NCBI GenBank assembly: GCA_026710545.1
Contig: JAPOQU010000011.1
Span: 1,155-65,154 of the forward strand
Length of the DNA: 64,000 nucleotides
Reading direction: 5' to 3'
DNA from: Gammaproteobacteria bacterium
Lineage (GTDB): Bacteria; Pseudomonadota; Gammaproteobacteria; Eutrophobiales; Eutrophobiaceae
The notes under the pieces: model-generated
The model's input: only the letters and a program-made list of their open reading frames with translations
What the model was told of the DNA's origin: nothing
Database searches by the model: none
Translations under genes and position numbers: made by a program
Part shown: positions 9,738 to 50,264 of the stretch, one piece after another
How the letters are laid out: every line of letters starts with the position of its first letter
Position numbering within the stretch: position 1 is the first letter of the stretch

Positions 9738-12179
9738 ATGAAATTATTGAATTACCTGGTTACGGTTCCTGTAATCACCTTATTCTCAGCCGGTATGTTT
9801 CAACTTCAGGCACAGGAGTCTCAGCCTGCTGCAGATAACGTGCTTGAGGAAATTATTACGATTGGTACCCGGACCCGGGACCGCAGTGTTGAAGACAGCC
9901 TGGTCCCGGTGGATATCATTACCGCTGATGACCTGGTCAGGTCGCCCAATATTGCCGGAGAACTGGGTGGCCTGTTACAGGCTGCCGTTGCTTCTTTCAG
10001 CATGCCGCGCCAATCCAACTCCGGCCATACCGATATCGTCAGGTCGGCGCAATTAAGGGGTTTGAGTCCGGACCAGGTGCTGGTCCTGGTGAATGGGAAG
10101 CGGCGCCATGCCAATTCGGTCATCAGTACTGAATCGAAGGTAGGCAGGGGCAGTGCGGCAGTGGATTTCAATAATATCCCCACCAGTGCGATTGAGCGCA
10201 TCGAGGTATTACGGGATGGCGCAGCAGCCCAGTACGGTTCGGATGCCATTGCCGGAGTCATTAACATCGTCCTCAAGGATAATACCGAAGGGGGCAGTAT
10301 CTCGGTTTCGTATGGGGGCCATATCACTGATCTGAAACCGGTCGACAAGAATATCACCGACGGAGAAACGGTGACCGTCAGTGCAAACCACGGGTTTTCT
10401 TTTGCCAACGGCTTCCTTAACCTCAGTGCGGAATACCGTGACAGATCATCGACCAACCGGTCAAGTTTCGACCAGTTGCCGACCATTGGCTTTGCGGAAT
10501 TCATCGCGCCGATCCCTTCCAGCGGGACACCGGAAGCCGCCCCGAATGATGCCCTGGCAGGCATGCGGAACTACCGGGAAGGCGATGGTGAATCAAGTGA
10601 TATAAACCTGATGTATAACGCCGGGTTCGATTTGAGCTCAGGATTCGAGCTATACAGTTTCGGCAGTTACTCGGAGCGTGACGGAGAAGGCTACAATTTC
10701 TTTCGTTATCCGGTCAGCGCAAATAACGTAGCTTCAGTATATCCCAACGGGTTCATGCCGATAAGTGACGCAGACATCACTGACTTCTCCGTAGCCGGCG
10801 GTATCACCGGCGAGTTGTCCGGTGGCTGGCTGGTCGATGCGAGCGTAGTACACGGTTTCAACGAGTTCTCCGACGGTGTAAAGAACACCATCAACTCTTC
10901 GCTGGGCGAGGCGAGCCCGACCGAATTTTACCGGGGCGAGTATGAATATTCGCAGACTGTGCTGAATTTTGATGTTTCCAGGGGGATGGAACTCGGCGCC
11001 ATACCGGTAAATGCCGCTGCAGGCCTGGAGTTTCGATTTGAGGATTACAGCACAAAGGCAGGTGACCCGGAATCCTATATCGCAGGGAACGCCGTAGCCT
11101 GTGCGGTCTGTATCACCTTCGGTAACAGCGATACGGCCAAGATCGGCGCGCAGAGCGGTCCGGGATTGACGCCGGCTGATGAAGTCGATGATGACCGGTT
11201 TTCCTGGTCGGCCTATATCGACCTGGAGTTTGATATTACTGATGACCTGCTGTTCTCAGTGGCGGGCAGGTTTGAAGATTACGATGATTTCGGCGATACG
11301 GTTAACGGTAAGGCTGCAGCCCGGTATGAGCTGTTCCCGGGCTTTGCCGTGCGCGCAAGCGTCAGCACCGGGTTCAGGGCGCCTTCCCTCGCACAGGCTT
11401 TTTTTACCGGCACGACGACCAGTTACGGTACCGGCGGCGCGCTGGTAAGAACATTGAGCCTGCCCGTGACCCATCCGATTGCGCGGGAGAACGGGGCAGA
11501 GGCTCTTGATGCTGAAGAATCACTGAGTAAAAGCATCGGTTTTACCTGGTCCCATGAGAACGGTCTCAGTCTGACCTTTGATTACTTCGAAGTGGATATC
11601 GATGATCGGATTGCACTGTCCCAGAACATACCTGTAGGCGGTGTGCCCGGTGTTGGCGGAGTCCGGTTTTTTACCAATGTTGCAGATACGGAAACCACCG
11701 GATTTGACGTGGTTGCAGCCTACCGGCGCGAGGGCTGGAATCTCTCGGTTGCGTATAACAACACCGATACTGATATCGTCAATAATCCGAACCGGGTGAT
11801 TATGGGTATCGAAGAGCAGAACACCTATGAGACGGCAGCGCCGGAAGATAAGCTGATTCTCACCGGATCATGGTCCAACGAAACCATTTCCGCCCTGGTG
11901 AGAGCGACGCGTTTCGGCGAAACGGAACGGATATTTGATTTCGGCGGGGGTTTTGAGCCGCAGCAGGTCTATGGCGCCGAATGGTCTGTCGATGCCGATC
12001 TTGAATATGCAATTAATGATAACTGGCGTATTTCAGCAGGGGCAAACAACCTGCTTGATGAATACCCTGACTTATCGATATTCGACATCAGCTATTTCGG
12101 CAACCTGCCGTATGACGTTCTTTCGCCTATCGGCGTTAATGGCCGCTTTGTTTACGTGAGGACAAGTTTCAGTTACTAG
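9738..12179 (+). CDS. TonB-dependent outer-membrane receptor
   Basis: Signal peptide, a plug domain (LEEIITIGTR, RIEVLRDGAAAQYGSDAIAGVINIVLK), a long beta-barrel region and a terminal aromatic residue. Confidence 0.9.
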   Translation: MKLLNYLVTVPVITLFSAGMFQLQAQESQPAADNVLEEIITIGTRTRDRSVEDSLVPVDIITADDLVRSPNIAGELGGLLQAAVASFSMPRQSNSGHTDIVRSAQLRGLSPDQVLVLVNGKRRHANSVISTESKVGRGSAAVDFNNIPTSAIERIEVLRDGAAAQYGSDAIAGVINIVLKDNTEGGSISVSYGGHITDLKPVDKNITDGETVTVSANHGFSFANGFLNLSAEYRDRSSTNRSSFDQLPTIGFAEFIAPIPSSGTPEAAPNDALAGMRNYREGDGESSDINLMYNAGFDLSSGFELYSFGSYSERDGEGYNFFRYPVSANNVASVYPNGFMPISDADITDFSVAGGITGELSGGWLVDASVVHGFNEFSDGVKNTINSSLGEASPTEFYRGEYEYSQTVLNFDVSRGMELGAIPVNAAAGLEFRFEDYSTKAGDPESYIAGNAVACAVCITFGNSDTAKIGAQSGPGLTPADEVDDDRFSWSAYIDLEFDITDDLLFSVAGRFEDYDDFGDTVNGKAAARYELFPGFAVRASVSTGFRAPSLAQAFFTGTTTSYGTGGALVRTLSLPVTHPIARENGAEALDAEESLSKSIGFTWSHENGLSLTFDYFEVDIDDRIALSQNIPVGGVPGVGGVRFFTNVADTETTGFDVVAAYRREGWNLSVAYNNTDTDIVNNPNRVIMGIEEQNTYETAAPEDKLILTGSWSNETISALVRATRFGETERIFDFGGGFEPQQVYGAEWSVDADLEYAINDNWRISAGANNLLDEYPDLSIFDISYFGNLPYDVLSPIGVNGRFVYVRTSFSY

Positions 12180-38293: not shown

Positions 38294-39175
38294 TTGCCAG
38301 GCAGGCTTGAAGGAAACACCTATTCGCTCATGGACACACAGAACCTGATTGAAGCCGGCAGGCTCGCCGAAGGAAAAGACCCTTTTGAGGCGACGATGAT
38401 CCTGAACCACAAACGCGCCATAGAGATGTTGGTTCAGGAGGTGGAATACGTGGATTTCAACATGTATACCTTCCTGAGCCTGCACGCCGTATTGTCGGAC
38501 AGTTTAATGAGCGACCCGGATGACAGCGGGCGCTTGCGGAACAAGATCGTTGAGATAGGCGGGTCTGTTTACATGCCGTTGGCGGTCCCCCAACAGGTAG
38601 AGCAGTATTTCAGGCTGATTCTGGACAAGGCAAAGGCCATCGACGACCCGTTTGAGCAGGCGTTTTTCCTGATGGTTCATATCCCGTACCTGCAGCCTTT
38701 TACCGATGTCAATAAGCGGGTGGCGCGGCTGGGCGCCAACATCCCGCTGATCAAAAACAGGCTGTGTCCGTTATCGTTCGTTGGCGTCCCCAAAAAAATC
38801 TATATTGAAGGGATGCTGGGCGTGTACGAACTGAACCAGCCCGACCTGCTGATGGACGTGTTCGTCTGGGCCTATGAACGGTCATGCCAACGGTACAATC
38901 TCTCAAAGGACCCTGCCGTCAAGCCCGATCCGTTCAGGCATAAATACAGGCCGATAATTGAATCAGTCATAAGCCGCATCGTCAAGGACAGGCTTGCATC
39001 CACTGCGGAATCCATTGCAAGCCTGACAGAAGGCCGTGTCCCTGATGAAGATATCGACAGGTTCATTGCTCTGGTTGACGATGAATTGCGCCGCCTGCAT
39101 GAGGCGGCACTGGCGCGATACAGGCTTCGGGTACCGGAATTTATCGAGTGGAAACAGATGCAGTCGGCGCGGTGA
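38294..39175 (+). CDS. Fic/Doc-family protein with a degenerate active-site motif, probably N-terminally truncated
   Basis: QPFTDVNKRVAR sits at the position of the Fic motif HPFx(D/E)GNGRxxR and resembles the Doc variant HxFxDxNKR, but with Gln for the catalytic His. The ORF begins at a TTG inside the LEGNTYSL helix. Confidence 0.6.
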   Translation: MPGRLEGNTYSLMDTQNLIEAGRLAEGKDPFEATMILNHKRAIEMLVQEVEYVDFNMYTFLSLHAVLSDSLMSDPDDSGRLRNKIVEIGGSVYMPLAVPQQVEQYFRLILDKAKAIDDPFEQAFFLMVHIPYLQPFTDVNKRVARLGANIPLIKNRLCPLSFVGVPKKIYIEGMLGVYELNQPDLLMDVFVWAYERSCQRYNLSKDPAVKPDPFRHKYRPIIESVISRIVKDRLASTAESIASLTEGRVPDEDIDRFIALVDDELRRLHEAALARYRLRVPEFIEWKQMQSAR

Positions 39176-39438
39176 TCACCGGCAGCGGCAACCTCAAGGT
39201 GCGGTACGTCATCCATGCCGTCGGTCCGCACAAGGGAGACGGGGACGAGGAGGAAAAACTCAGGAACGCGACACTGAACAGTCTGAAAGTCGCAGATGAA
39301 AATGGCCTGAAAAGCATCGGGTTTCCGGCCATCAGCACCGGTGTATTCGGTTTCCCGATTGAACGCTGCACGGAGATTATGCTTTCCAATACGATAAGCT
39401 ACCTGCAAAAAGAAACTGGCTCTGGTAGTATCCAATGA
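39163..39438 (+). pseudogene. macro-domain gene fragment 3 (3' two-thirds), abutting the Fic-like gene
   Basis: Encodes AVITGSGNLKVRYVIHAVGPHKGDGDEEEKLRNATLNSLKVADENGLKSIGFPAISTGVFGFPIERC... Confidence 0.85.
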
Positions 39439-40460: not shown

Positions 40461-40517
40461 TGCCCGGTCGGCGGCGCGCTGCTCACCGCTGGCGACAATC
40501 TCAAGGCGCGTCACGTC
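40461..40517 (+). pseudogene. macro-domain gene fragment 4 (57 nt)
   Basis: Encodes CPVGGALLTAGDNLKARHV. It ends at and overlaps the vapC stop codon. Confidence 0.7.
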
Positions 40518-40924
40518 CAGTCCACCCAATCCTCAAATGACAACCCCTTTATCCGGTTAAATTCTTTAGTGTTGTGGGTGACGAGTATTACATCTTCTGC
40601 AAGGGCATGGCAGGCAATCCACAAATCATTCGCGCCGACAGGCATGCCGCTTTCCTTAAGGTAGGTAAAATGAGCGGCATATTGTTCACATAAAGTACGA
40701 TTAACGTGATAAATCACGGGAACCTGCCTGACTAATTGACCCAGTTGGCGCAATACCCTGTGTTTGCGCGTACTGCGCTCTGCTCCTTTAAGCATTTCCG
40801 CATAGGTAAAAAAAGACATGCATAGCTGGGCATCCTCTCCCAGCTTGTTGAAGCGTTGCGCTACTGACACAGGCCTGTTCTTGAGCAGGTAAATCAGGAT
40901 ATTCGTATCCAGCATATACCTCAT
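40511..40924 (-). CDS. vapC: VapC PIN-domain ribonuclease toxin
   Basis: MLDTNILIYLLKNRP..., a 137-aa PIN pattern. It overlaps vapB by 4 nt. Confidence 0.85.
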   Translation of the reverse strand: MRYMLDTNILIYLLKNRPVSVAQRFNKLGEDAQLCMSFFTYAEMLKGAERSTRKHRVLRQLGQLVRQVPVIYHVNRTLCEQYAAHFTYLKESGMPVGANDLWIACHALAEDVILVTHNTKEFNRIKGLSFEDWVDWT

Positions 40925-41175
40925 AAGTCTTCCCTTTCCTGCACTGTAGGCTGAGTCCGATAATTTTCTTCAAGTATTTCAACAAACTCATCATCAAACG
41001 CTGACAATGCATTAAGCAGCGCAGTCCCGCGATTTTCAGGTATTGCATGGATCACAAGGTCGCCATCTCTATTCCGGGTAATTTCAACTTGTGAAGTATT
41101 CAATCTGAATTCCTGCGGAATACGTACCGCCTGGCTATTGCCGTTCATGAATACCCGGCTATTTAATGTAGTCAT
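40921..41175 (-). CDS. vapB: VapB (AbrB/SpoVT-type) antitoxin
   Basis: FMNGNSQAVRIPQEFRL is the swapped-hairpin motif. It lies directly upstream of vapC. Confidence 0.8.
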   Translation of the reverse strand: MTTLNSRVFMNGNSQAVRIPQEFRLNTSQVEITRNRDGDLVIHAIPENRGTALLNALSAFDDEFVEILEENYRTQPTVQEREDL

Positions 41176-41424: not shown

Positions 41425-41829
41425 CTACTTTCTATTCCTGCCAATAATGAAAGTCGAGGCAAGACCAATAACCACACTGCTTCCTATGACCATGGCCGCC
41501 CATTGCAACCCTGAAATTGCAATATAACCGCCTGTTAAAATTCCCAGTGAACAGATAATTAACGCAAAGATATGCCCTCTCTTGGCTTCTTTGTATTCAT
41601 TGGAGATGATCAGTTGTTCCGTATCATGGCGATGGCCGGTTTCTCTTTCCGCCATTGCGATAATACGCTCAGCGGCGCCCGGCGTTATCTGGTTATACTT
41701 TTCCAGCGTATCAGGTGGAGGAATAGGGCCACTGAACTGCTCCGTGACCTGAATAACTTGCTGTTTATTTTGTCGTTGTACGGTTGACTGTCTTTTTTTG
41801 ACAGGTGCTTTACCTTGTCGTCCTCTCAT
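41425..41829 (-). CDS. DUF2335-like membrane protein
   Basis: PPPDTLEKYNQITPGAAERIIAMAERETGHRH followed by two TM helices. The family call is from memory. Confidence 0.55.
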   Translation of the reverse strand: MRGRQGKAPVKKRQSTVQRQNKQQVIQVTEQFSGPIPPPDTLEKYNQITPGAAERIIAMAERETGHRHDTEQLIISNEYKEAKRGHIFALIICSLGILTGGYIAISGLQWAAMVIGSSVVIGLASTFIIGRNRK

Positions 41830-42147: not shown

Positions 42148-42672
42148 ATGCAAATACAAATCAACAATAAAACCCTGCAACTCGCCGAAGGCGATATCAC
42201 CGAACTCCACACCGACGCCATCGTCAATGCGGCCAATACCTCGCTCATATTAGGCGCGGGAGTGGCCGGCGCCATTCGCGCCAAAGGCGGCCCTGCCATC
42301 CAGCAGGAATGCGATGAAATCGGCGGCTGTCCGGTAGGCGGCGCGGTAATCACCGGCGGCGGCAACCTCAAGGCGCGGCACGTCATCCATGCCGTCGGCC
42401 CGCGCAAGGGAGAAGGGGACGAAGAGGAAAAACTCAGGAACGCGACACTCAACAGCCTGAGAGTCGCAGACGAAAACGGCCTGAAAAGCATCGGGTTTCC
42501 GGCCATCAGTACGGGCGTTTTTGGTTTTCCGATTGAACGCTGCGCGGAGATCATGCTATCCGCCACGATAGATTACCTGCGGGGAGAAACCGGGCTGGTG
42601 AGAGTGGTTTTCTGTTTGTATGGGGAGGAGGCGTTCAGGGTTTTTGAGGGGGTTTTGGAGAAAATCCATTAA
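42148..42672 (+). CDS. stand-alone macro-domain protein (YmdB-like O-acetyl-ADP-ribose deacetylase family), the intact copy
   Basis: [42 protein letters not shown] and GFPAISTGVFGFP. Confidence 0.85.
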   Translation: MQIQINNKTLQLAEGDITELHTDAIVNAANTSLILGAGVAGAIRAKGGPAIQQECDEIGGCPVGGAVITGGGNLKARHVIHAVGPRKGEGDEEEKLRNATLNSLRVADENGLKSIGFPAISTGVFGFPIERCAEIMLSATIDYLRGETGLVRVVFCLYGEEAFRVFEGVLEKIH

Positions 42673-42677
42673 ATGGA

Positions 42678-44492
42678 TTGGGCTCTATTGATGTACTATC
42701 ATTGAGAACCGTGAACTATTATTCAGAAAATGCGCCGAGTCTGGTCTCAAAGTATAATTCCCTGAAGCCCGAATCTCTGCACGCGTCCTGGTTCAGTTTA
42801 ATTCCAGATGACCCGGGCATTGCCCTAGACATAGGCGCTGGCAGTGGGCGCGATGCATACTGGCTGGCTGAAAAAGGCTGGGACGTGATTGCCGTTGAGC
42901 CATGCAGGGAGTTTCGGGAACTGGCCAAACCGCGGGAACTGGCCAAACCGGATAGTCATGCTAACGTCATATGGCAGGATGATGAACTGCCCGAACTGAA
43001 ATCCCTCCGTACTGCCGGTCATCGATTCAATTTGATATTGTTGAGCGCCGTATGGATGCATGTATTGCCGAACAAGAGAGAGCGAGCATTCCGTATCATC
43101 AGCGAACTACTGGCGCCAGGAGGAATTCTGGTATTCACGCTACGTTACGGCACTGATGAGCGGGAAAACCTTGACAGAGGTTTCCATCCGGTCAGTAGTG
43201 GAGAACTGGAAAAATACGCTAAACAGCGTGCTTTGGCGCAGGTGTTTTATGAAGGATCAGAGGACCATCTGGCCAGGTCAAACGTTCGCTGGGAGACTCT
43301 GGTCTTTCAATTGCTGGACGATGGCACGGGCAGCCTGCCGCTGTTGCGCCACATCATCGTCAATGACGACAAGTCAGCCACCTATAAGTTGGGTTTGTTG
43401 CGCGCCTTGATACGTATAGCGGAAGGGGCACCGGGGATGGTGACCAAGCGTACCGATGATACTGTTGAGATACCCTTTGGATTAGTCGGGTTATACTGGA
43501 TCAAGCTCTATATGCCCCTGGTGCTGAAACACGGCCTTATCCAGTCTCCAAGCCATAAACCATTGGAGAAAAAAGGGCTTGGTTTCGCAAAAGAACATTT
43601 CTATCAGTTAGCGAGGTTTTCGTCGTTTGACCTGCGAATTGGCGCAATGTTTGACGCTGAGCACACCCGCCCCGTAGTTGGCGCAATCAGGGACGTTTGT
43701 AAAAATATTCAGGATATGCCTGCGAACTACATTACTTACCCCGGCAGAAGCGATCAGGTTTTTAACTGTGAAAGGCAAACGGTACGTTCAAAAAACGACA
43801 AGCCCTGGCGCATCGATAAGCAAACTCTGGCTGATTTTGGAGTCTTCGTAATACCAGCCAGCGTATGGCAATGTCTGGGACAATATGCCTGCTGGTTGGA
43901 ACCGGTTATCATCAACGAGTGGGCAAGGCTGATGCAGGGATACGATATAAAAAATAATGATTACAAATTCGGTGTCCCGCAATGGGCCATTTCGGGTCGG
44001 CACATCGCCGACCAGAGTCCTGATTCCAGGAAGGATTATTGCGAGGCGTTGCAATGGGAGGAAGGTCACCGTGATACCGAACCGGTACGCAAACGAGTGC
44101 AGGAGCTTCGGCAAAACGGCGAATCTGTCTATTGTGTCTGGACCAACGCAAGGCTGAAAGAGCGTTATGAGGTTGATCATTGCTTCCCCTGGAGTCGATG
44201 GTACAACAACGATCTCTGGAATTTGATGCCTGCGAGCACAACGGCTAACGGGAAAAAAAGAGAGAAGTTGCCGTCAGCGCCTTTATTGCATCACTCCCAA
44301 GGCCGTATTACAGACTGGTGGAACTCGGCTTATATTAACGGCAGGATGAAAGAACAATTCCTGCTGGAAGCCGCATCCACTCTACCTTTGGTGGATGATG
44401 GGATGATGGATTTGACTGCCATTTTTGAAGCCGTGATGCACCAGCGTGCAAAATTGAAAGCGAATCAACAATTAGCGGAGTGGTTGGGCTGA
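42678..44492 (+). CDS. fusion protein: class-I SAM-dependent methyltransferase + unknown central domain + C-terminal HNH nuclease
   Basis: SAM motif I is LDIGAGSGRDAYWLAEKGWDVIAVEP. The HNH motif is YEVDHCFPWSRWYNNDLWNLMPASTTANGKKREKLP. The apparent TTG start lies 5 nt after the macro stop. Confidence 0.7.
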   Translation: MGSIDVLSLRTVNYYSENAPSLVSKYNSLKPESLHASWFSLIPDDPGIALDIGAGSGRDAYWLAEKGWDVIAVEPCREFRELAKPRELAKPDSHANVIWQDDELPELKSLRTAGHRFNLILLSAVWMHVLPNKRERAFRIISELLAPGGILVFTLRYGTDERENLDRGFHPVSSGELEKYAKQRALAQVFYEGSEDHLARSNVRWETLVFQLLDDGTGSLPLLRHIIVNDDKSATYKLGLLRALIRIAEGAPGMVTKRTDDTVEIPFGLVGLYWIKLYMPLVLKHGLIQSPSHKPLEKKGLGFAKEHFYQLARFSSFDLRIGAMFDAEHTRPVVGAIRDVCKNIQDMPANYITYPGRSDQVFNCERQTVRSKNDKPWRIDKQTLADFGVFVIPASVWQCLGQYACWLEPVIINEWARLMQGYDIKNNDYKFGVPQWAISGRHIADQSPDSRKDYCEALQWEEGHRDTEPVRKRVQELRQNGESVYCVWTNARLKERYEVDHCFPWSRWYNNDLWNLMPASTTANGKKREKLPSAPLLHHSQGRITDWWNSAYINGRMKEQFLLEAASTLPLVDDGMMDLTAIFEAVMHQRAKLKANQQLAEWLG

Positions 44493-44551
44493 AGTTTGTG
44501 TTTGCAACTCCCGAAGCGGCGCTTATATTTACTTGGTTTTGCTTGGATTGT

Positions 44552-45394
44552 CTACTTGTGACAAGCTAAACAAACCTTTGTCTGTCCATATAAATCATCA
44601 ATATCCAGCGGGTCGTAATCAGGCCGTAGTGGATTAGGTTGTATTTTGGCGCGCATACGTAGAAGACGTTGTTCGTGTTCCTGCTGGATTTGCTGTACCC
44701 GCTCGGGTTTTTCCAGTTCTTCCAGTGGTTCGCCTTGACTCCAAGTGAATGGGGAACCTTGGTCCAGAGAATTTTTTTCGTAAGCTTTGGCTTCCTTAAA
44801 TGCTTCGGGATGGTGTTCTTTCAATCGGACCCATTCGATTTTCTGCTGGAAAAAACAGAATGTACACCCGCTACGGGTTCGCCATGCATAGTATGTCGGC
44901 AAACCAAGGCCCGCTCCGTCAAGAATTTCAAGCACGCCAAGCTTATCAATGCCTGTTTCCCTAAAAGGTAGTCGTACTATAAGCCGCTCGTTTTTGGATG
45001 CATAGCCTTCGCGATATTCCTCATCCGAACGGATAGCGACATAGCTGTAGATCGTTTCCCCGTCTTCAAGCTTGGGGCGCAGCCAGTGTTCGAATGGCCG
45101 CAGTTTCAGTTGTCTGGTACACCAGCGGCTTTGCGGTGACGGCAGAAAATCATTGTACTGCTTAAGCCAGAAGTCGAATTCCCGGTCTGGATTCAGTCGT
45201 AAGATCGGCTGCCCCAGAAAACCTTCCAGGCGCCCGAGATATTCATACACTTCCGGCAGTTCTTTACCGGTGTCCGTGAAAAAATATTCAATATCCAGTT
45301 CCGGGTGATGTTGCCGCATATATACGGCCAAGGCCGCACTGTCTCGACCACCTGACAAGCCCAACACATGCCGCTCATTGGCAACGATACTCAT
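44552..45394 (-). CDS. PP-loop ATP pyrophosphatase of the PAPS-reductase family (DndC/SspD/BrxP-like)
   Basis: PP-loop LSGGRDSAA, RWCTRQLK, the Cys cluster SGCTFCFF and a C-terminal CLAC. Its ATG overlaps the stop of the upstream ATPase (ATGA). Confidence 0.75.
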   Translation of the reverse strand: MSIVANERHVLGLSGGRDSAALAVYMRQHHPELDIEYFFTDTGKELPEVYEYLGRLEGFLGQPILRLNPDREFDFWLKQYNDFLPSPQSRWCTRQLKLRPFEHWLRPKLEDGETIYSYVAIRSDEEYREGYASKNERLIVRLPFRETGIDKLGVLEILDGAGLGLPTYYAWRTRSGCTFCFFQQKIEWVRLKEHHPEAFKEAKAYEKNSLDQGSPFTWSQGEPLEELEKPERVQQIQQEHEQRLLRMRAKIQPNPLRPDYDPLDIDDLYGQTKVCLACHK

Positions 45395-48300
45395 GACGCT
45401 GTCTGTTCCTTTTGCTTTGAATCATTGGGTTCGTTTGCTGCTTGTTTGAGATAGCGGGCGCTTAATTCCGCCAAGGCTGCAAGGATTATATTGCGGCGTC
45501 TTTCCCCACTGCGCTCAAGTGTTTTATCTACCCGTTTGATCAACTCGTCCACTTGAGTACGTTCCAGGTCGGTAACGACAAATTCATCGTGAAAAGGTGT
45601 GGGTCTGTTATCCATTCCAACCACCACGGCCATGGCATGGCGTTTGTCCGGTCGTCCTTTTACCCGAGCGAATGTTTCAGCCCGGAGGAATTTTTGCGCC
45701 AGTTCAGCAATCTCGATTGCTGTCCGATCAAGATCGGGATCAATCCAGTTACGGGGCGGCTTGCTTGCTGCCAAGCTGGCTATGCTCTCGAAGCTTGCGT
45801 CACTGTTACTGAACTGTGCAAGCCTTCCGATAAATGCCTCAAGCTTGAAGTCTCCGACTGCCTGGCTGATATTCTTCGCACGCTCATGCAATTCCGCCAG
45901 GGATTGTTGGGACATATTGGGCACTTGCAACTCTTCAAACATAATGTGGCGTAATCGACGTAGCATCGAAGGATAGGCTTGTACCAATTCCTCCAGGCCA
46001 TCACGAATATTATCGACAACGTGGGGTAGCGAGTTCTCGTCTATTTTGGTGATATGCTCTCCCAGTGTTGCGGGAATGTCGTCAAACAGAAACTTGTTCG
46101 GATCCCGTGCGTGCTTGAACATGTTTCTGATACGCACCGCATTGGCTGATAGCCGCATCGTCCGTTTGGTCCATTGTGGTAATTGATCGTAAATTGCTAC
46201 GAGGCCGCGGGCAACGTCAATCGGTTCAAGTTGAGTAAGCTGGTTGGTTTCATCCAGGTCCCGGACGATTGCCGCCATTTCTGACAACAACCTTCGAGCA
46301 ATGTCGGATAAATCCATCCACCTGATTTGGATGGTGCGTGCATCTTTTGCCAGGTAGTCAACGTCCACGTCGTCAAATCGAGGTTTGAACAACCCTTCCC
46401 GGTAGATCGCCAGTTTATCCCGTTGGGATAATATGAATGCGACAGAGAGAATCGGCAGTAGTCCGTCTTTAACGCCAAATGGCGGTTTAAGCCAGAGAGC
46501 ATACAAGTCTGAGACAGCTATAGTTGTTTCTTTTATGTTATTGATTGCAGCGTCCCACATTGGTACTAAATTACAGGGATCCATGCTTTCCAGAGGGGAC
46601 ATGAATTGCCACCTGTCCTGGTTTTGACGATACAGTCCGGACGTTTTTAATATCGATTCAAGCAAACCGACTTCCGGAGGAAATTTTTCGATACCCAGCC
46701 GTGGTTCTCCTTCGTTCAAAACCATATGTCGCAATAAACTGTTTTGTGCAGCTACTGCACTGCTTGAGGGTTTTTGGCGGTTTAACAACTCGTTATGCAG
46801 GCGCGGAGATTTGTTAAAGCGAAGGCTTGCCAATTCCGATGCAAGGTAATTAAGATCGGCTCGCCGCAAATGTCGTCCGTCGTGTGTTCTGCTGAACCAC
46901 TCAGCAGTATCGAATGTCTTGAGCAACTCTTCCTCAATAAGGGATTGCAAGGCCCCATGACGCTCCGAAATCTCCCGTTTCGCCACAGGGTCGCCTGTCA
47001 AATCGGGATTTTCTTTATTCACCAACTGCAATGCAAATAATTCACGGGCTAGCGGAATAATGGACCAGGAAATCCTGGACAGACCTATAGTGCTATCCCA
47101 TAGGCCAGGATGGTTTGCTGCCTCCCGGCATCGTTCCCTTGCTTCTTCTTCACTTTCATCCGCAGTCGGAAGCGCAAGTAAAAACTGGCCTATGGTGCCA
47201 TTTTCCGGCTTGAAACAAGTCACAGCCTCAATCAGCTCACTGAGTGACGTAATGTTGACCTCAAACCAGCGCAGTGCCCCTGTCTCGTGGTAATGGCGCT
47301 TGGCCAGGACAGGATGTAAGCCCACAAGCGATTTAAGTTCCATTAAATCGATCTCATCTATTTCTTTCAGGGCTGACCGGGTGGCTTGGTCAATATCAAA
47401 ATCACTTCCCGCATAGATGGCGTGTACGCCAAGGAATTTTTTGAAAATGGTGAGTGACCATTTATCCAGTTGCGACAGGGCTTCCTCAAGCTCCCGGAAG
47501 GGTATTTCACGAAAGCAGGTTTTCAATATGTCAGAGTTCGCAACGATCCCTGAGCGTTCTTTGAATAAGTCCAACACCGCGATGGTTTTCATCAGCTTGA
47601 CATGAATTTCGTCGCCGCCTTGAGCTTCGCACCGCTCAAGCGCTTCGGCCGCCAAAGCCCAGCGATGTCCGTCTGGCGAGGCCAGGATAGACGGTTCCAG
47701 GTTGGCGCGCAGGTAGTCCCAGAGCAGGTCAGGGGTGTACAATTTTGCAGCCTCGGCGTGTTTCAGAAAATCCTGAAATCCGTACAACTCTGCCGAGTTC
47801 AGAAAGCTGAACAGGCTGCGTTGGTTCTGCCCGAAACGGCGACGCGAGATGGGTCCGAGTAAGCAGGTAACGACCGGGTGTAAGGGGCAGCATCCGAGAA
47901 GCTTGGAGGCAAGTCGCTCAGCGTCAGGCGTATTGTTCCGTTGGACAGCTATGGCTACATCAGTGCAGAGCTTGTCCATGCCTTCAGGCTGGTAATCACT
48001 CTCAATTGCGCGGGAAATCAGTTCTACCTGTTCTTCACCCGTGACACTGATAACAAGATCAATGAAGCGTCCTTGTACCTTGGCCCATTCATCACGTATC
48101 TCGTGTGAAAGACGGTGGGTATATGCCTCAAATGATTGGTGCAATATGCCGATTATAAGCAAACGCCCTTCACTCCGTGACGCAGCTTCGGCAAGCTGCT
48201 GAAAAACATAAATATCTGAACCATCTCTCACCGCGGCCTCAAGGAATTTGCCCATTTCATCAATAAACAACACAAGGCCGCCGTAGGTTTCGGGCCTGTA

Positions 48301-48774
48301 TTTGGCGGCATTCATGAGTGAGGTGACCAGCTTGCTTTCGGTCCAACCTCCACGGGGTCGACGCGCTACGACCTCGTTTTGTAAAAGGGTTTCACCAATA
48401 ACGCTGACAGGATCATCTCGTGTGCCAACGACCGGAACAATGCGCCATCCTTCAAGGCCGAGCGGTAACGCTTTTCCGACATCATTGGTCAGTTCCGGTC
48501 CAAATACTTTCTCCGCGTGCTCGCGCATAGATAGGTTGCCATTCAACAATGCGCCTAACGCAAGGACCAGGCTTGACTTTCCGCTACCGTAAGGACCCGT
48601 CCAGGTAAATGCCCCTTGCCCGGTTTCGGAGATATGGTTTGCCATGGTTTTCAGAACGTCGGCGAAGGACTGTGGGCAAATATACCCTTCCAAGGCTGAA
48701 CCATCAGTCAGGTCTGTGTCTATGCGTACTGATCTGAGAAAGCGGCTTGCAATATGGACACGTTCGTTCGGCAT
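45391..48774 (-). CDS. 1127-aa P-loop ATPase (BrxC/SspC-like architecture)
   Basis: Walker A FTWTGPYGSGKSSLV and Walker B GGLVLFIDEMGKF, followed by a helical region of about 850 aa. The family assignment is by architecture only. Confidence 0.6.
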   Translation of the reverse strand: MPNERVHIASRFLRSVRIDTDLTDGSALEGYICPQSFADVLKTMANHISETGQGAFTWTGPYGSGKSSLVLALGALLNGNLSMREHAEKVFGPELTNDVGKALPLGLEGWRIVPVVGTRDDPVSVIGETLLQNEVVARRPRGGWTESKLVTSLMNAAKYRPETYGGLVLFIDEMGKFLEAAVRDGSDIYVFQQLAEAASRSEGRLLIIGILHQSFEAYTHRLSHEIRDEWAKVQGRFIDLVISVTGEEQVELISRAIESDYQPEGMDKLCTDVAIAVQRNNTPDAERLASKLLGCCPLHPVVTCLLGPISRRRFGQNQRSLFSFLNSAELYGFQDFLKHAEAAKLYTPDLLWDYLRANLEPSILASPDGHRWALAAEALERCEAQGGDEIHVKLMKTIAVLDLFKERSGIVANSDILKTCFREIPFRELEEALSQLDKWSLTIFKKFLGVHAIYAGSDFDIDQATRSALKEIDEIDLMELKSLVGLHPVLAKRHYHETGALRWFEVNITSLSELIEAVTCFKPENGTIGQFLLALPTADESEEEARERCREAANHPGLWDSTIGLSRISWSIIPLARELFALQLVNKENPDLTGDPVAKREISERHGALQSLIEEELLKTFDTAEWFSRTHDGRHLRRADLNYLASELASLRFNKSPRLHNELLNRQKPSSSAVAAQNSLLRHMVLNEGEPRLGIEKFPPEVGLLESILKTSGLYRQNQDRWQFMSPLESMDPCNLVPMWDAAINNIKETTIAVSDLYALWLKPPFGVKDGLLPILSVAFILSQRDKLAIYREGLFKPRFDDVDVDYLAKDARTIQIRWMDLSDIARRLLSEMAAIVRDLDETNQLTQLEPIDVARGLVAIYDQLPQWTKRTMRLSANAVRIRNMFKHARDPNKFLFDDIPATLGEHITKIDENSLPHVVDNIRDGLEELVQAYPSMLRRLRHIMFEELQVPNMSQQSLAELHERAKNISQAVGDFKLEAFIGRLAQFSNSDASFESIASLAASKPPRNWIDPDLDRTAIEIAELAQKFLRAETFARVKGRPDKRHAMAVVVGMDNRPTPFHDEFVVTDLERTQVDELIKRVDKTLERSGERRRNIILAALAELSARYLKQAANEPNDSKQKEQTAS

Positions 48775-48997
48775 TATCGGCTTGGTTTCTCTACAGGGAC
48801 TCTATCGTAATTGGAGAATATGTACGGAAGCGTCCTTTCTTCTTGATATTGAAATTGCGAACAACTTATTTCAAGTTCAATTTTAATGTCTGGGATATGT
48901 TATAGTCAATCTGTGATCGCAGGTTTTTCTCGCGTTTTGCATATGGCGTCCTGGCTCTGTCCAAAGTAGGGTTTTATATTCTACCTGATTGAACTAA

Positions 48998-50203
48998 ATG
49001 AGAATTTCAGAAACCATCTATTTCGATCATCAAGCTACGACTCCCGTTGACCAGCGCGTTTCAGACCGCATGCTGCCTCATTTCAGCGAAACCTTCGGCA
49101 ACTCCCACTCCGCAGATCATGTTCTAGGCTGGAAAAGCTCTCAGGCTGTGGAGCAGGCGGCAGTCCAAGTAGCGAGTCTGGTCAGCGCCGACCCCGATGA
49201 GATCATTTTCACGTCAGGCGCCACGGAAGCGAATAACATGGCCTTGCTCGGTCTTGCTCGACGTGTGCATCCTGAAAGCAGGAGGCGGCGGTTTATCCTC
49301 AGCGAAATTGAACACAAGTGCGTACTTGCAGCCGGGCGGGCTATTTCTGACCAACTTGGTTTTCCCGTAGATCATCTACCTGTCGACAATGAAGGCCACG
49401 TCCTGTTGACGTCTTTGGAAAATGCCTTGGATGAAGACGTACTCGCCGTTTCCATCATGGCGGTAAATAATGAAATCGGCACAATTCAGGACATCCAAAA
49501 AATTTCCGAACTGGTCAGGAATGCAGGCGCCATATTTCATTGCGACGCAGCCCAGGCCCCTATTTCCGTAGACATGCGGGGAATTGTCGAGCATGTGGAC
49601 ATGTTGAGTCTATCCGCCCACAAGATGTACGGGCCAAAAGGCATCGGCGCGCTCTACATCCGTCGGGAGTTACAGGATCGCCTGGAACCGCTTATCTACG
49701 GCGGGGGACAGCAGAACGGTTTACGCTCAGGCACCGTCCCTACGGCCTTGTGCGTCGGCATGGGTGCGGCCGCCGAACTTCTGAGTGGCTATGAGGCAAT
49801 GCAAAAACATACTCTCCTGTGCCAAAGACGGGACCGCTTTCTCGAAAAATTGTCGGACTTGCCCTGGGCCATCCGATTGAACGGCCCCACCGGAGAATCC
49901 CGCCATCCCGGCAATGCCAATATTTGCTTCGAAGGTTTCTACGCCCAGGATATTTTACAAGTGCTTCAACCCCATCTTGCCGCTTCTACCGGGTCGGCCT
50001 GCACGTCCGGCATTCCGGAACCTTCCCACGTTCTCAAAGCCATAGGTCTGTCCCTTGAAGATGCCGAAGCATCCATCCGCTTCAGTCTTGGCTTTGACAC
50101 TACAGACGAAGATATTGATGATGCGGTAAACTTGATAGACAATGCGCTTAATAGACTTTCGGCCACGCAGATTAAGGCTTCAGCGATGGCCGGCGTCGGC
50201 TAA
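48998..50203 (+). CDS. class-V PLP-dependent cysteine desulfurase (IscS/NifS/DndA/SspA-like), stand-alone
   Basis: FDHQATTP, SGATEANN, PLP-lysine motif SAHKMYGPKG and active-site Cys in STGSACTSG. There are no isc or suf neighbours. Confidence 0.85.
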   Translation: MRISETIYFDHQATTPVDQRVSDRMLPHFSETFGNSHSADHVLGWKSSQAVEQAAVQVASLVSADPDEIIFTSGATEANNMALLGLARRVHPESRRRRFILSEIEHKCVLAAGRAISDQLGFPVDHLPVDNEGHVLLTSLENALDEDVLAVSIMAVNNEIGTIQDIQKISELVRNAGAIFHCDAAQAPISVDMRGIVEHVDMLSLSAHKMYGPKGIGALYIRRELQDRLEPLIYGGGQQNGLRSGTVPTALCVGMGAAAELLSGYEAMQKHTLLCQRRDRFLEKLSDLPWAIRLNGPTGESRHPGNANICFEGFYAQDILQVLQPHLAASTGSACTSGIPEPSHVLKAIGLSLEDAEASIRFSLGFDTTDEDIDDAVNLIDNALNRLSATQIKASAMAGVG

Positions 50204-50222
50204 AATATGATTCAAATAGTGG

Positions 50223-50264
50223 ATTCCGGTCCCTGCTTTCGCAGGGATAAACTTAAACCGGAAT
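50223..50264. repeat. nested REP-like inverted repeat
   Basis: ATTCCGGT...ACCGGAAT encloses TCCCTGCTTTCGCAGGGA. The CTGCTTTCGCAG core recurs near 53545. Confidence 0.7.

What the first reader, a model, noticed from the sequence alone, without database searches (positions are those of the whole stretch)
42678..44492. SAM-methyltransferase / unknown 260-aa domain / HNH fusion placed 5 nt after the macro-domain gene
The N-terminal ~200 aa carry a small-molecule-type class-I MTase motif (LDIGAGSGRD...VIAVEP). I do not see DPPY/NPPY-type DNA-MTase motifs. The C-terminal ~100 aa are a clear HNH (DHCFPWSRW...NLMP...ANGKK). The middle region (about residues 215-480, including ATYKLGLLRALIRIAEG) matches nothing I can name and could be a DNA- or modification-sensing module. 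The gene starts only 5 nt after the macro gene stop, so the two may be co-transcribed. That would link an ADP-ribose-processing domain to the nuclease.
Basis: partly seen in the sequence, partly recalled or inferred. Interest (0 to 1): 0.6.

Follow-up and report, generated by a model that had tools for sequence, protein, structure and literature searches.

The report
Methyltransferase–HNH nuclease tied to DNA phosphorothioation
This gene encodes a real, widespread but unstudied three-part enzyme (a small-molecule-type methyltransferase, a domain with no known relatives and a Cas9-type DNA-cutting domain), and several independent clues link it to sulfur modification of the DNA backbone and not to the neighbouring macro-domain gene.

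Summary
The ORF 42678..44492 (+, 604 aa) is real. It has a class-I SAM methyltransferase domain of the TehB/UbiG/thiol type, a ~270-aa central domain and an HNH_4 nuclease. It belongs to a family of over 1000 proteins across many phyla, annotated only as "methyltransferase".

The central domain is the best conserved part. It matches nothing in Pfam, NCBIfam, PADLOC, PDB sequences or Foldseek (PDB and BFVD), even with a good model (pLDDT 88.5).

The macro link is not supported as functional. Macro is adjacent only in the window's own clade and near 0 of 157 other loci.

The family has no conserved neighbour. Three observations tie it to DNA phosphorothioation (PT):
- The downstream genes are sspD, sspC and sspA, and the gene sits in the position that SspE holds in a canonical relative.
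- This ssp cassette lacks SspB. SspB was missing in 3 of 3 ssp cassettes next to the gene and present in 22 of 22 elsewhere. SspC/D in the SspB-less Vicinamibacterales pair are under purifying selection.
- The closest non-fused relatives of the MTase domain lie beside Dnd PT clusters in 7 of 7 cases, often with an HNH gene.

Best reading: a PT-linked conflict nuclease, possibly the DNA-recognition and nicking partner of SspACD. No biochemistry exists.

The parts
42678..44492 (+). Whole gene: MTase - central domain - HNH fusion protein, 604 aa, TTG start. GTG at 42711 is a possible alternative start.
42711..43307 (+). Class-I SAM methyltransferase domain (about aa 12-210) of the TehB/UbiG/thiol-MTase type. 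SAM-binding motifs are invariant: D51, G53, G57, E74, D102 and LSAVWMH at 121-128.
   Evidence: Pfam; NCBIfam; PDB sequence searches; Foldseek, TehB E 5.7e-8; alignment
42915..42950 (+). Perfect 18-bp tandem duplication (CGGGAACTGGCCAAACCG x2), in frame, giving RELAKP x2. It is absent from all 21 aligned homologues.
43314..44060 (+). Family-specific central alpha/beta domain (about aa 213-461). It is the most conserved part of the family (DDGTGSLPLLRHIIVNDDKSATYKLGLLRAL, IPFGLVGLYW, QYACWLEP) and has no detectable homologue.
43962..44030 (+). 23-aa insertion (about aa 429-451, YKFGVPQWAISGRHIADQSPDSR), found only in the window's closest relatives. Model confidence is low here.
44061..44300 (+). 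HNH_4 (Cas9-type) nuclease domain with its preceding helix (about aa 462-541). D500, H501, N515 and N524 are invariant.
44301..44489 (+). Conserved C-terminal helical extension (about aa 542-604; WW547-548, LPL569-571, HQR...QQLxEW).
42148..42672 (+). Macro-domain gene, 5 nt upstream. It is a syntenic neighbour only within the window's clade.
44552..45394 (-). sspD (PAPS-reductase-like ATP pyrophosphatase), convergent with the gene across a 59-nt gap.
   Evidence: PADLOC SspD E 2.1e-135
45391..48774 (-). sspC (BrxC-like ATPase, 1127 aa). No sspB lies upstream; only 223 bp separate it from sspA.
   Evidence: PADLOC SspC E 0
48998..50203 (+). sspA (cysteine desulfurase), divergent from sspC.
   Evidence: PADLOC SspA E 1.1e-130
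44474..50257 (.). Extent of the ssp cassette as a variable insertion. It is absent from L001-L003, where the gene abuts the glyoxalase gene. L004 retains a 153-nt sspA remnant at the same site.

Best explanation
The gene encodes a member of a large, uncharacterised family of single-chain enzymes. Each has a SAM methyltransferase of the TehB/thiol type, a family-specific central domain that I infer to be the nucleic-acid recognition module, and a Cas9-type HNH nuclease. The family has no obligatory partner gene, so it must be able to work alone. I read it as a DNA-conflict (restriction-like) nuclease whose chemistry belongs to the DNA phosphorothioate (PT) world. Proposed mechanism: the central domain positions the protein on DNA and the HNH domain nicks or cuts. 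The MTase either acts on a sulfur nucleophile connected with PT (the PT sulfur itself or a sulfur-transfer intermediate) or couples nuclease activity to SAM. In this window the protein occupies the effector (SspE) position of an sspA/sspC/sspD cassette that has no sspB. It most likely serves that cassette as its nuclease and DNA-recognition partner. Shown: the domain architecture, conservation of the catalytic residues, the lack of a conserved neighbour, the absence of SspB, the positional equivalence to SspE, and the Dnd association of the MTase subfamily. Inferred: DNA binding by the central domain, any PT-directed activity, and any cooperation with SspACD. The macro gene upstream is a clade-specific syntenic neighbour and not part of the system.
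For: 1. Architecture and conserved catalytic residues.
2. No conserved neighbour in 80 loci; the largest flanking cluster is in 8 of 80. Recurrent defence-type neighbours (HKD-helicase-DUF3427 type IV/PbeA-like) are in 4-5 of 80.
3. The neighbours in the window are SspD, SspC and SspA. In L188, which has the same sspA<>sspBCD layout, the gene convergent to sspD is SspE (E 2.5e-227). That is the slot and orientation this gene has in the window.
4. SspB/DUF4007 is absent from the whole genomes G000, G034 and G038, while the positive controls G028 and G035 match. SspB is absent in 3 of 3 ssp cassettes adjacent to the gene (window, L055, L067) and present in 22 of 22 complete cassettes elsewhere. 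Fisher p = 4.3e-4, or 3.6e-3 if counted as two events. The closest relatives of both cassettes have SspB.
5. The SspB-less SspC and SspD of L055 and L067 are under purifying selection (dN/dS 0.31 and 0.19, dS 0.2-0.3).
6. The adjacency recurs in the window's lineage: L195 has SspD 92% identical right after an 89%-identical copy of the gene.
7. The closest non-fused relatives of the MTase domain (38-39% identity over the whole domain, E 5e-37 and 2e-33, with shared family motifs) lie beside Dnd PT clusters in 7 of 7 cases. Three of these have an adjacent HNH gene, and one of those HNH domains is homologous to the window's (hhalign probability 95%).
8. PT writers are over-represented in carrier genomes: SspD in 10 of 48 and DndC in 6 of 48, against SspD baselines of 1.5% and 3%.
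Against: 1. Only 2 of 160 other family loci have ssp genes within 10 kb, none has dnd genes, and 33 of 48 carrier genomes have no PT writer. PT cannot be an obligatory resident partner.
2. In the window's clade the slot between the gene and the glyoxalase gene is a cargo hotspot. It holds unrelated cargo in other genomes: an AAA_16 ATPase, a PhdYeFM-PIN pair, or nothing. The ssp adjacency here could therefore be incidental.
3. Remnants of ssp genes next to the gene (L004, L058, L059) show that these cassettes decay.
4. The central domain shows no similarity to SspB (hhalign 1.3%) or to any known PT reader.
5. The adjacent cases amount to only two independent events.
6. The carrier enrichment is confounded by taxonomy and habitat.
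7. There are no expression, modification or biochemical data.
Confidence: 0.5

Rival explanations
1. The protein is a stand-alone restriction-like or abortive-infection nuclease unrelated to phosphorothioation. Its MTase domain is a SAM sensor or acts on some other substrate. The ssp cassette landed beside it only because the site is a cargo hotspot, and the SspB-less cassettes are simply decaying.
For: The family has no conserved neighbour. 158 of 160 other loci lack ssp. Cargo in the same slot varies among clade members. Remnants of ssp genes lie beside the gene in L004, L058 and L059. 33 of 48 carriers have no PT writer.
Against: SspB loss is confined to the adjacent cassettes, 3 of 3 against 0 of 22. 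SspC and SspD are intact and under purifying selection in the SspB-less state. The MTase subfamily's non-fused relatives are in Dnd loci in 7 of 7 cases, which a PT-unrelated function does not explain.
Confidence: 0.3
2. The protein is a type IV-like enzyme that attacks PT-modified foreign DNA. An active PT writer of matching specificity next to it would be self-toxic, so loss of sspB was selected and the adjacent cassettes are disabled.
For: Most carriers lack PT writers, as expected for an enzyme aimed at foreign PT-DNA. SspB is missing in exactly the adjacent cassettes. ssp remnants lie beside the gene. Reader-HNH enzymes such as ScoMcrA cut PT-DNA (PMC3009677, listed).
Against: Eight carrier genomes keep a complete sspBCD elsewhere and six keep DndC. 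A trans-acting nuclease would not distinguish near from far. SspC/D remain under purifying selection after sspB loss. The related MTases sit with PT writers and not apart from them. No similarity to the sulfur-binding domain was found.
Confidence: 0.1
3. One reading: the macro gene and this gene form a functional pair that links ADP-ribose processing to the nuclease.
For: The gap is 5 nt in the window and in L230, and there is a 7-nt overlap in L194. The adjacency is kept in several clade members. No terminator-like site lies between the genes.
Against: Macro is near the gene in 3 of 80 genome loci, all in the closest clade, and in 0 of 80 metagenome loci. Within the clade the two genes are separated by insertions in L001, L003 and L195. 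L231, at 69% identity, has no macro.
Confidence: 0.05
4. The protein is a housekeeping or metabolic methyltransferase with an accessory nuclease-like domain and has no role in genetic conflict.
For: It is conserved as a backbone gene in the window's clade. Its annotation everywhere is simply 'methyltransferase'.
Against: Its distribution across phyla is patchy, it occurs on plasmids, and its contexts are variable and often defence-rich. The HNH catalytic residues are invariant.
Confidence: 0.05

Closest known systems
SspE (DUF262 NTPase + DUF1524 His-Me nuclease), the PT-sensing effector of SspABCD-SspE
   Same: It occupies the same genomic slot and orientation, convergent to sspD (L188). It has the same general plan: an N-terminal cofactor-binding enzymatic domain and a C-terminal His-Me/HNH-type nuclease.
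   Different: There is no sequence relationship: no SspE, DUF262 or DUF1524 hits. The N-terminal domain is a SAM methyltransferase and not an NTPase. The family is mostly found without ssp genes.
SspB (DUF4007), the DNA-binding/nicking component regarded as essential in sspBCD
   Same: SspB is missing from the cassettes that adjoin this gene. The protein could supply DNA recognition and nicking.
   Different: No detectable homology (hhalign 0.7-1.3%; no Pfam hit). The gene is not in the sspB position in the window; it lies convergent, downstream of sspD.
Reader-HNH type IV restriction enzymes (ScoMcrA/SprMcrA: sulfur-binding wHTH domain, with or without SRA, plus HNH)
   Same: An HNH nuclease preceded by a putative nucleic-acid reader domain, with a link to PT systems.
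   Different: The central domain does not match the sulfur-binding domain by sequence profile or Foldseek. The HNH is the Cas9-type HNH_4. An N-terminal MTase is present.
TehB / UbiG / thiol-type class-I SAM methyltransferases
   Same: These are the best structural and profile matches of the N-terminal domain. Relatives also carry TPMT hits.
   Different: Here the domain is fused to a nuclease. It forms its own subfamily, with the LSAVWMHV and R..V.W.T motifs, shared only with the Dnd-locus membrane MTases.
Dnd-locus membrane-anchored MTase (about 340 aa), with or without an adjacent HNH gene. I found no description of it in the literature.
   Same: Same MTase subfamily at 38-39% identity. It is often paired with an HNH gene, and one of these HNH domains is homologous to the window's.
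   Different: The genes are separate. It has an N-terminal transmembrane segment in place of the central domain, and it always sits beside dnd genes.
Type IIG single-chain restriction-modification enzymes (MmeI/Eco57I class)
   Same: One polypeptide combines a methyltransferase fold with a nuclease.
   Different: There is no amino-MTase (D/N/S)PP(Y/F/W) motif and no N6_Mtase hit. The nuclease is HNH and not PD-(D/E)XK, and the domain order is reversed.

Membership tests
Class-I SAM-dependent methyltransferase (Methyltransf_11/23/25) | Rossmann-like fold with a GxGxG SAM loop, an acidic residue after strand 2 and an acidic residue after strand 3 | tested here: met
   Pfam E 4.5e-12 to 1e-9. D51/G53/G57, E74 and D102 are invariant. 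Foldseek to TehB E 5.7e-8.
DNA amino-methyltransferases (N6A/N4C) | Catalytic (D/N/S)PP(Y/F/W) motif IV and a target-recognition domain | tested here: not met
   The motif-IV position reads LSAVWMH. No N6_Mtase or related Pfam/NCBIfam hit.
HNH_4 (Cas9-type HNH nuclease, PF13395) | beta-beta-alpha-Me core with a D-H general base and two Asn residues | tested here: met
   Pfam E 1.1e-8; 80 of 80 members hit. D500, H501, N515 and N524 are invariant. Foldseek top hits are Cas9 HNH domains, though weak (E 0.03).
SspB / DUF4007 | Sequence or profile similarity to DUF4007 | tested here: not met
   No Pfam hit in 80 members. hhalign probability 0.7% and 1.3%.
SspE | DUF262 NTPase plus DUF1524 nuclease | tested here: not met
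   No PADLOC SspE or Pfam hits. A true SspE scores E 2.5e-227 in L188.
SspABCD modification system (minimal set sspBCD, PMC12914056) | SspB, SspC and SspD encoded together | tested here: not met
   SspC, SspD and SspA are present and full length. SspB is absent from the locus and from the 100%-complete genome.
ScoMcrA-type SBD-HNH type IV restriction enzymes | N-terminal sulfur-binding winged-helix domain | tested here: inconclusive
   No PDB sequence hit to these entries at E<=10 with the family profile. None appears among the 50 Foldseek matches listed. Small winged-helix domains can escape both methods.
PT-dependent or PT-partnered nuclease (functional class) | Activity that depends on, or is stimulated by, phosphorothioate in DNA | not testable with these tools
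   Only genomic association is available.
Macro-linked operon | Macro adjacency conserved across independent lineages | tested here: not met
   3 of 80 and 0 of 80 loci, all within the closest clade. L231 lacks it.

The most novel reading that the evidence does not exclude
The protein is a new kind of PT-system component that replaces SspB, and perhaps also SspE. In this reading its central domain is a new DNA-recognition fold that directs both SspC/SspD-dependent sulfur insertion and HNH nicking. Its thiol/chalcogen-type methyltransferase would S-methylate the phosphorothioate sulfur or a persulfide intermediate. That would be a previously unknown enzymatic chemistry on the DNA backbone, shared with the membrane-anchored MTases of Dnd loci.
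Probability: 0.12. Interest if true: 0.9.

Novelty: new variant of a known kind. Interest (0 to 1): 0.66.

Why it matters
The family is large (over a thousand proteins across many phyla and on plasmids), yet databases call it only "methyltransferase", and I found no paper describing it. It joins a nuclease to a methyltransferase type that is not known to act on DNA, through a well-conserved domain with no detectable relative.

Current definitions treat sspBCD as the minimal Ssp gene set. The SspB-less ssp cassettes that sit only beside this gene challenge that definition. The consistent placement of the sister MTases inside Dnd clusters gives a concrete, testable hypothesis for an undescribed accessory activity in DNA phosphorothioation.

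If the PT link proves wrong, the protein is still a good candidate for a new single-gene defence nuclease.

Tried and rejected
- Central domain as SspB/DUF4007: rejected (Pfam none, hhalign 0.7-1.3%).
- Central domain as a known fold: Foldseek against the PDB and BFVD with a pLDDT-88.5 model returned only weak HNH matches. The full-length model returned only MTases.
- PDB sequence and profile searches found only MTases and Cas9 HNH.
- Macro gene as a family-wide partner: rejected.
- Any conserved neighbour: none found.
- Dnd genes near the fused family: none in 160 loci.
- The family in phages: no full-length copy.
- HNH partners of the Dnd-locus MTases as ScoMcrA relatives: no match. Their N-terminal parts do not match the central domain.
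- Promoter and terminator scan at the junctions: nothing above chance.
- Reconstructing the sspB deletion from the sspA-sspC spacer: no homology to related spacers.
- Literature searches for the fusion and for S-methylation of PT: nothing found.
Full report
**Observation**

The ORF 42678..44492 (+) is present as described: 604 aa with a TTG start, 5 nt after the stop of a macro-domain gene (42148..42672).
- Pfam places class-I SAM methyltransferase models at aa 42-163 (E 4.5e-12 to 1e-9) and HNH_4 at aa 493-532 (E 1.1e-8). Nothing is assigned in between.
- NCBIfam and PADLOC add only weak TehB/UbiG/CpaM-type MTase, mad2-MTase and Cas9-HNH similarities.
- Most homologues begin at the position of V12, so GTG at 42711 is a possible alternative start.
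- The window copy carries a perfect, in-frame 18-bp tandem duplication (42915-42950, RELAKP x2) that no aligned homologue has.

**The family**

The three-part architecture is not a local accident.
- A word-indexed search returned more than 120 full-length homologues at 53-89% identity, named at most "SAM-dependent methyltransferase".
- Pattern scans found 491 confirmed loci in species-representative genomes and 524 in metagenomes. The phyla include Gamma- and Alphaproteobacteria, Latescibacterota, Gemmatimonadota, Acidobacteriota, Thermodesulfobacteriota and Cyanobacteria.
- An exhaustive HMMER search with the central+HNH part alone (aa 205-604) gave 129 representative clusters at E<=1e-30. 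In nearly all of them the match starts near residue 190 of a 560-590-aa protein, so the MTase is almost always attached. A few divergent members have an N-terminal part without a Pfam MTase hit.
- Nine plasmid or chromid records carry full-length copies, all annotated as methyltransferase. No phage does.
- In alignments, the SAM-binding residues, the HNH residues D500/H501/N515/N524 and above all the central region are invariant or nearly so.

**The domains**

- *MTase.* Its closest solved structures are TehB, UbiG, phosphoethanolamine and thiol methyltransferases. The motif-IV position reads LSAVWMH, so it is not a DNA amino-methyltransferase.
- *Central+HNH model.* A model built on an 80-sequence alignment is of high quality (pLDDT 88.5, pTM 0.89). 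Foldseek against the PDB and the viral BFVD library returned only weak matches of the C-terminal part to Cas9-type and phage HNH domains (best E 0.03-0.06).
- *Central domain.* None of 80 members has any Pfam family there. The central domain (about aa 213-461) therefore has no detectable relative by sequence, profile or fold. DNA binding is my inference from its position before the nuclease and is not shown.

**Macro gene**

Among the 80 genome loci, macro lies nearby only in the three closest relatives. Among 80 metagenome loci it never does.

Within the window's clade the conserved backbone is esterase - macro - this gene - glyoxalase - peptidase M17.
- L230 shows the compact form with the same 5-nt gap, and L194 a 7-nt overlap.
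- L228 and L229 have a few hundred bases between the two genes.
- L001, L003 and L195 have inserted cargo or macro fragments between them.
- A 69%-identical relative sits in an unrelated context.

Co-transcription here is plausible, and no terminator-like site separates the genes. A functional link to ADP-ribose has no comparative support.

**Neighbours in general**

Clustering all flanking ORFs of 80 loci found no partner in more than 8 loci. The only recurrent defence-type neighbour is an HKD/PLD-nuclease-SF2-helicase-DUF3427 protein of the type IV restriction/PbeA-like kind, in 4-5 loci. The family is therefore a stand-alone module in variable, sometimes defence-rich, contexts.

**The ssp cassette**

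Downstream of the gene lie sspD (44552..45394, -; PADLOC E 2.1e-135), sspC (45391..48774, -; E 0) and sspA (48998..50203, +; E 1.1e-130). These are components of the single-strand DNA phosphorothioation system.

*Variable cargo.* Synteny shows that the block of about 44474-50257 is variable cargo.
- In L001-L003 the gene abuts the glyoxalase gene.
- L004 keeps a 153-nt sspA remnant at the same place.
- Other clade members carry an AAA_16 ATPase, a PhdYeFM-PIN pair or a small ORF there.
- L195, with an 89%-identical copy of the gene, again has SspD (92% identical) right after it.

*No SspB.* The cassette is unusual because it has no SspB.
- Only 223 bp separate sspA from sspC.
- The 100%-complete genome has no DUF4007 by HMM or by protein search, while positive-control genomes match.
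- The literature treats sspBCD as the minimal modification set, and BrxP as an SspD-SspB fusion (PMC12914056).

*The SspE slot.* In L188, with the same sspA<>sspB-sspC-sspD layout, the gene convergent to sspD is SspE (E 2.5e-227). In the window that slot and orientation are taken by the gene under study.

**SspB is missing only beside this gene**

Of 160 other family loci, two (L055 and L067, both Vicinamibacterales) have sspC-sspD within 10 kb, divergent from the gene. They also lack SspB, both locally and genome-wide. L058 and L059 keep a 104-aa SspC N-terminal remnant in the same position. The SspB-less arrangement was therefore ancestral to four species-level genomes.

In contrast, SspB sits directly upstream of sspC in all 22 other complete ssp loci examined:
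- 8 in carrier genomes but far from the gene;
- 6 from a 400-genome survey of the window's class;
- 8 from a 300-genome survey of Vicinamibacterales.

These include the closest relatives of both SspB-less cassettes (SspD 82-90% identical). Fisher's exact p is 4.3e-4, or 3.6e-3 if the Vicinamibacterales cases count as one event.

Between L055 and L067, dN/dS is 0.31 for SspC, 0.19 for SspD and 0.17 for the gene itself, with dS 0.2-0.3. SspC and SspD have therefore been maintained by selection without SspB.

A simple incompatibility model, in which the nuclease attacks PT-DNA, fits poorly. Eight carriers keep a complete sspBCD and six keep DndC elsewhere in the genome.

**The MTase subfamily lives in Dnd clusters**

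A tblastn search of plasmids with the whole protein found, after the full-length members, hits to the MTase domain only.
- Two of these are about 340-aa proteins with N-terminal transmembrane helices. Their C-terminal MTase is 38-39% identical to the window's across the whole domain (E 5e-37 and 2e-33) and shares the family-specific motifs.
- Both lie inside Dnd loci, directly after a DGQHR/DndB-type gene. One of these genes matches TIGR04172, "DNA phosphorothioation-associated DGQHR protein 1", at E 4.4e-139.
- This membrane-MTase family has at least 421 members.
- Five diverse members sampled (Hoeflea, Brevundimonas, Nostoc, an unnamed 7.3-Mb genome, Sphingobium) are all directly beside DndB/DndC/DndD/DndE(/DndA) clusters.
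- In three of them the immediate neighbour is a 320-340-aa HNH protein. One of these (L223, HNH_4) is homologous to the window's HNH region (hhalign probability 95%, E 4e-8), but not to the central domain.
- A stand-alone copy in Azospirillum is in an unrelated context, and one lies in an E. coli phage next to the integrase.

The window protein therefore looks like a fused counterpart of an "HNH + MTase" pairing that accompanies PT writers. I found no description of this in the PT literature that I could search.

**Genome-level co-occurrence**

SspD is present in 10 of 48 carrier genomes and DndC in 6 of 48, so 15 of 48 have one or the other. SspD baselines are 6 of 399 in the window's class and 10 of 301 in Vicinamibacterales.

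The odds ratio is about 12. However, all SspD-positive carriers belong to non-gammaproteobacterial phyla, so taxonomy, habitat and general richness in defence genes confound this figure. Two thirds of carriers have no PT writer, so the family must also function without resident PT.

**Interpretation**

The most economical reading is that the family is a self-sufficient conflict nuclease whose unusual MTase belongs to a PT-associated subfamily. In this window, and in the Vicinamibacterales loci, it has become the nuclease and DNA-recognition partner of an Ssp cassette that dispensed with SspB. I give this about 0.5.

The main rival, at about 0.3, is that the ssp adjacency is a hotspot coincidence and the cassettes are on their way to decay, as the remnants in L004, L058 and L059 show. 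That rival does not explain the selective maintenance of SspC/D or the 7 of 7 Dnd association of the sister MTases.

The boldest reading not excluded is that the thiol-type MTase methylates the PT sulfur or a sulfur-transfer intermediate. Nothing tests this yet.

Earlier AI notes from this scan on the same family in other genomes reached similar general conclusions. Some guessed a PT or SAM-sensing role. I treated them as leads only. The SspB pattern, the SspE-slot equivalence and the Dnd-locus MTase survey were established here.

**Verdict**

The novelty lies in an undescribed family with an unknown central domain and in converging genomic evidence for a role in DNA phosphorothioation. Biochemistry is needed.

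Noticed in passing
window 44552-50203: The sspA / sspC-sspD cassette has no sspB (DUF4007). Only 223 bp separate sspA from sspC, and the 100%-complete genome has no DUF4007 anywhere. Current definitions treat sspBCD as the minimal set.
   Followed up: yes
window 39148-39438: A truncated, near-identical duplicate of the middle of the macro gene lies about 3 kb upstream of the intact copy. The segment between them carries a VapBC pair (40511-41175) and a membrane-protein gene (41425-41829).
   Followed up: partly
window 42915-42950: A perfect 18-bp in-frame tandem duplication (RELAKP x2) inside the MTase domain, unique to this copy among 22 aligned sequences.
   Followed up: yes
L004 11756-11908; L058 and L059 9524-9832: Remnants of ssp genes lie directly beside the family gene in other genomes: a 153-nt sspA 3' end in L004, and a 104-aa SspC N-terminus in L058 and L059. 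Adjacent cassettes are therefore gained and lost.
   Followed up: partly
L092 13047-17317 (-); L094 10217-14487 (-): A conserved pair of proteins of about 633 and 790 aa, with no PADLOC match, lies convergent to sspD in two canonical sspA<>sspBCD loci, where SspE sits in L188. These may be undescribed Ssp effectors.
   Followed up: no
L219 4572-5591; L221 6587-7588; L223-L227 8001-~9100: A family of at least 421 membrane-anchored class-I MTases (about 340 aa) lies directly beside Dnd phosphorothioation clusters in 7 of 7 cases examined. In 3 of the 7 an HNH gene is adjacent. I found no description of this in the literature.
   Followed up: partly
L218 2336-3519 (Escherichia phage phi458, Orf2-Orf3): A 200-aa stand-alone relative of the same MTase subfamily (34% identity) lies with an unknown 194-aa ORF right next to the phage integrase, in a moron-like position.
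   Followed up: no
L017, L018, L020, L025, L031 and others (neighbours of the gene): An HKD/PLD-nuclease-SF2-helicase-DUF3427 protein of about 1030 aa (PADLOC mREase_IV/PbeA-like) is the only recurrent defence-type neighbour of the family. It is immediately adjacent in 4-5 of 80 loci.
   Followed up: partly
P0177, P0263, P0269 (representative-library hits): Divergent family members of 524-575 aa have the central+HNH part, but their 160-180-aa N-terminal region gets no Pfam MTase hit. This may be a degenerate or replaced N-terminal domain.
   Followed up: no
L215 (G533:C1, ~9869-10519): An orphan SspD (61% identical to L055's) with no SspC or SspB within 10 kb, in a Vicinamibacterales genome.
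   Followed up: no
L067 6986-8680 (-): A DrmD-like (SNF2 helicase C-terminal) ORF lies between sspC and the family gene, where L055 has them directly divergent.
   Followed up: no
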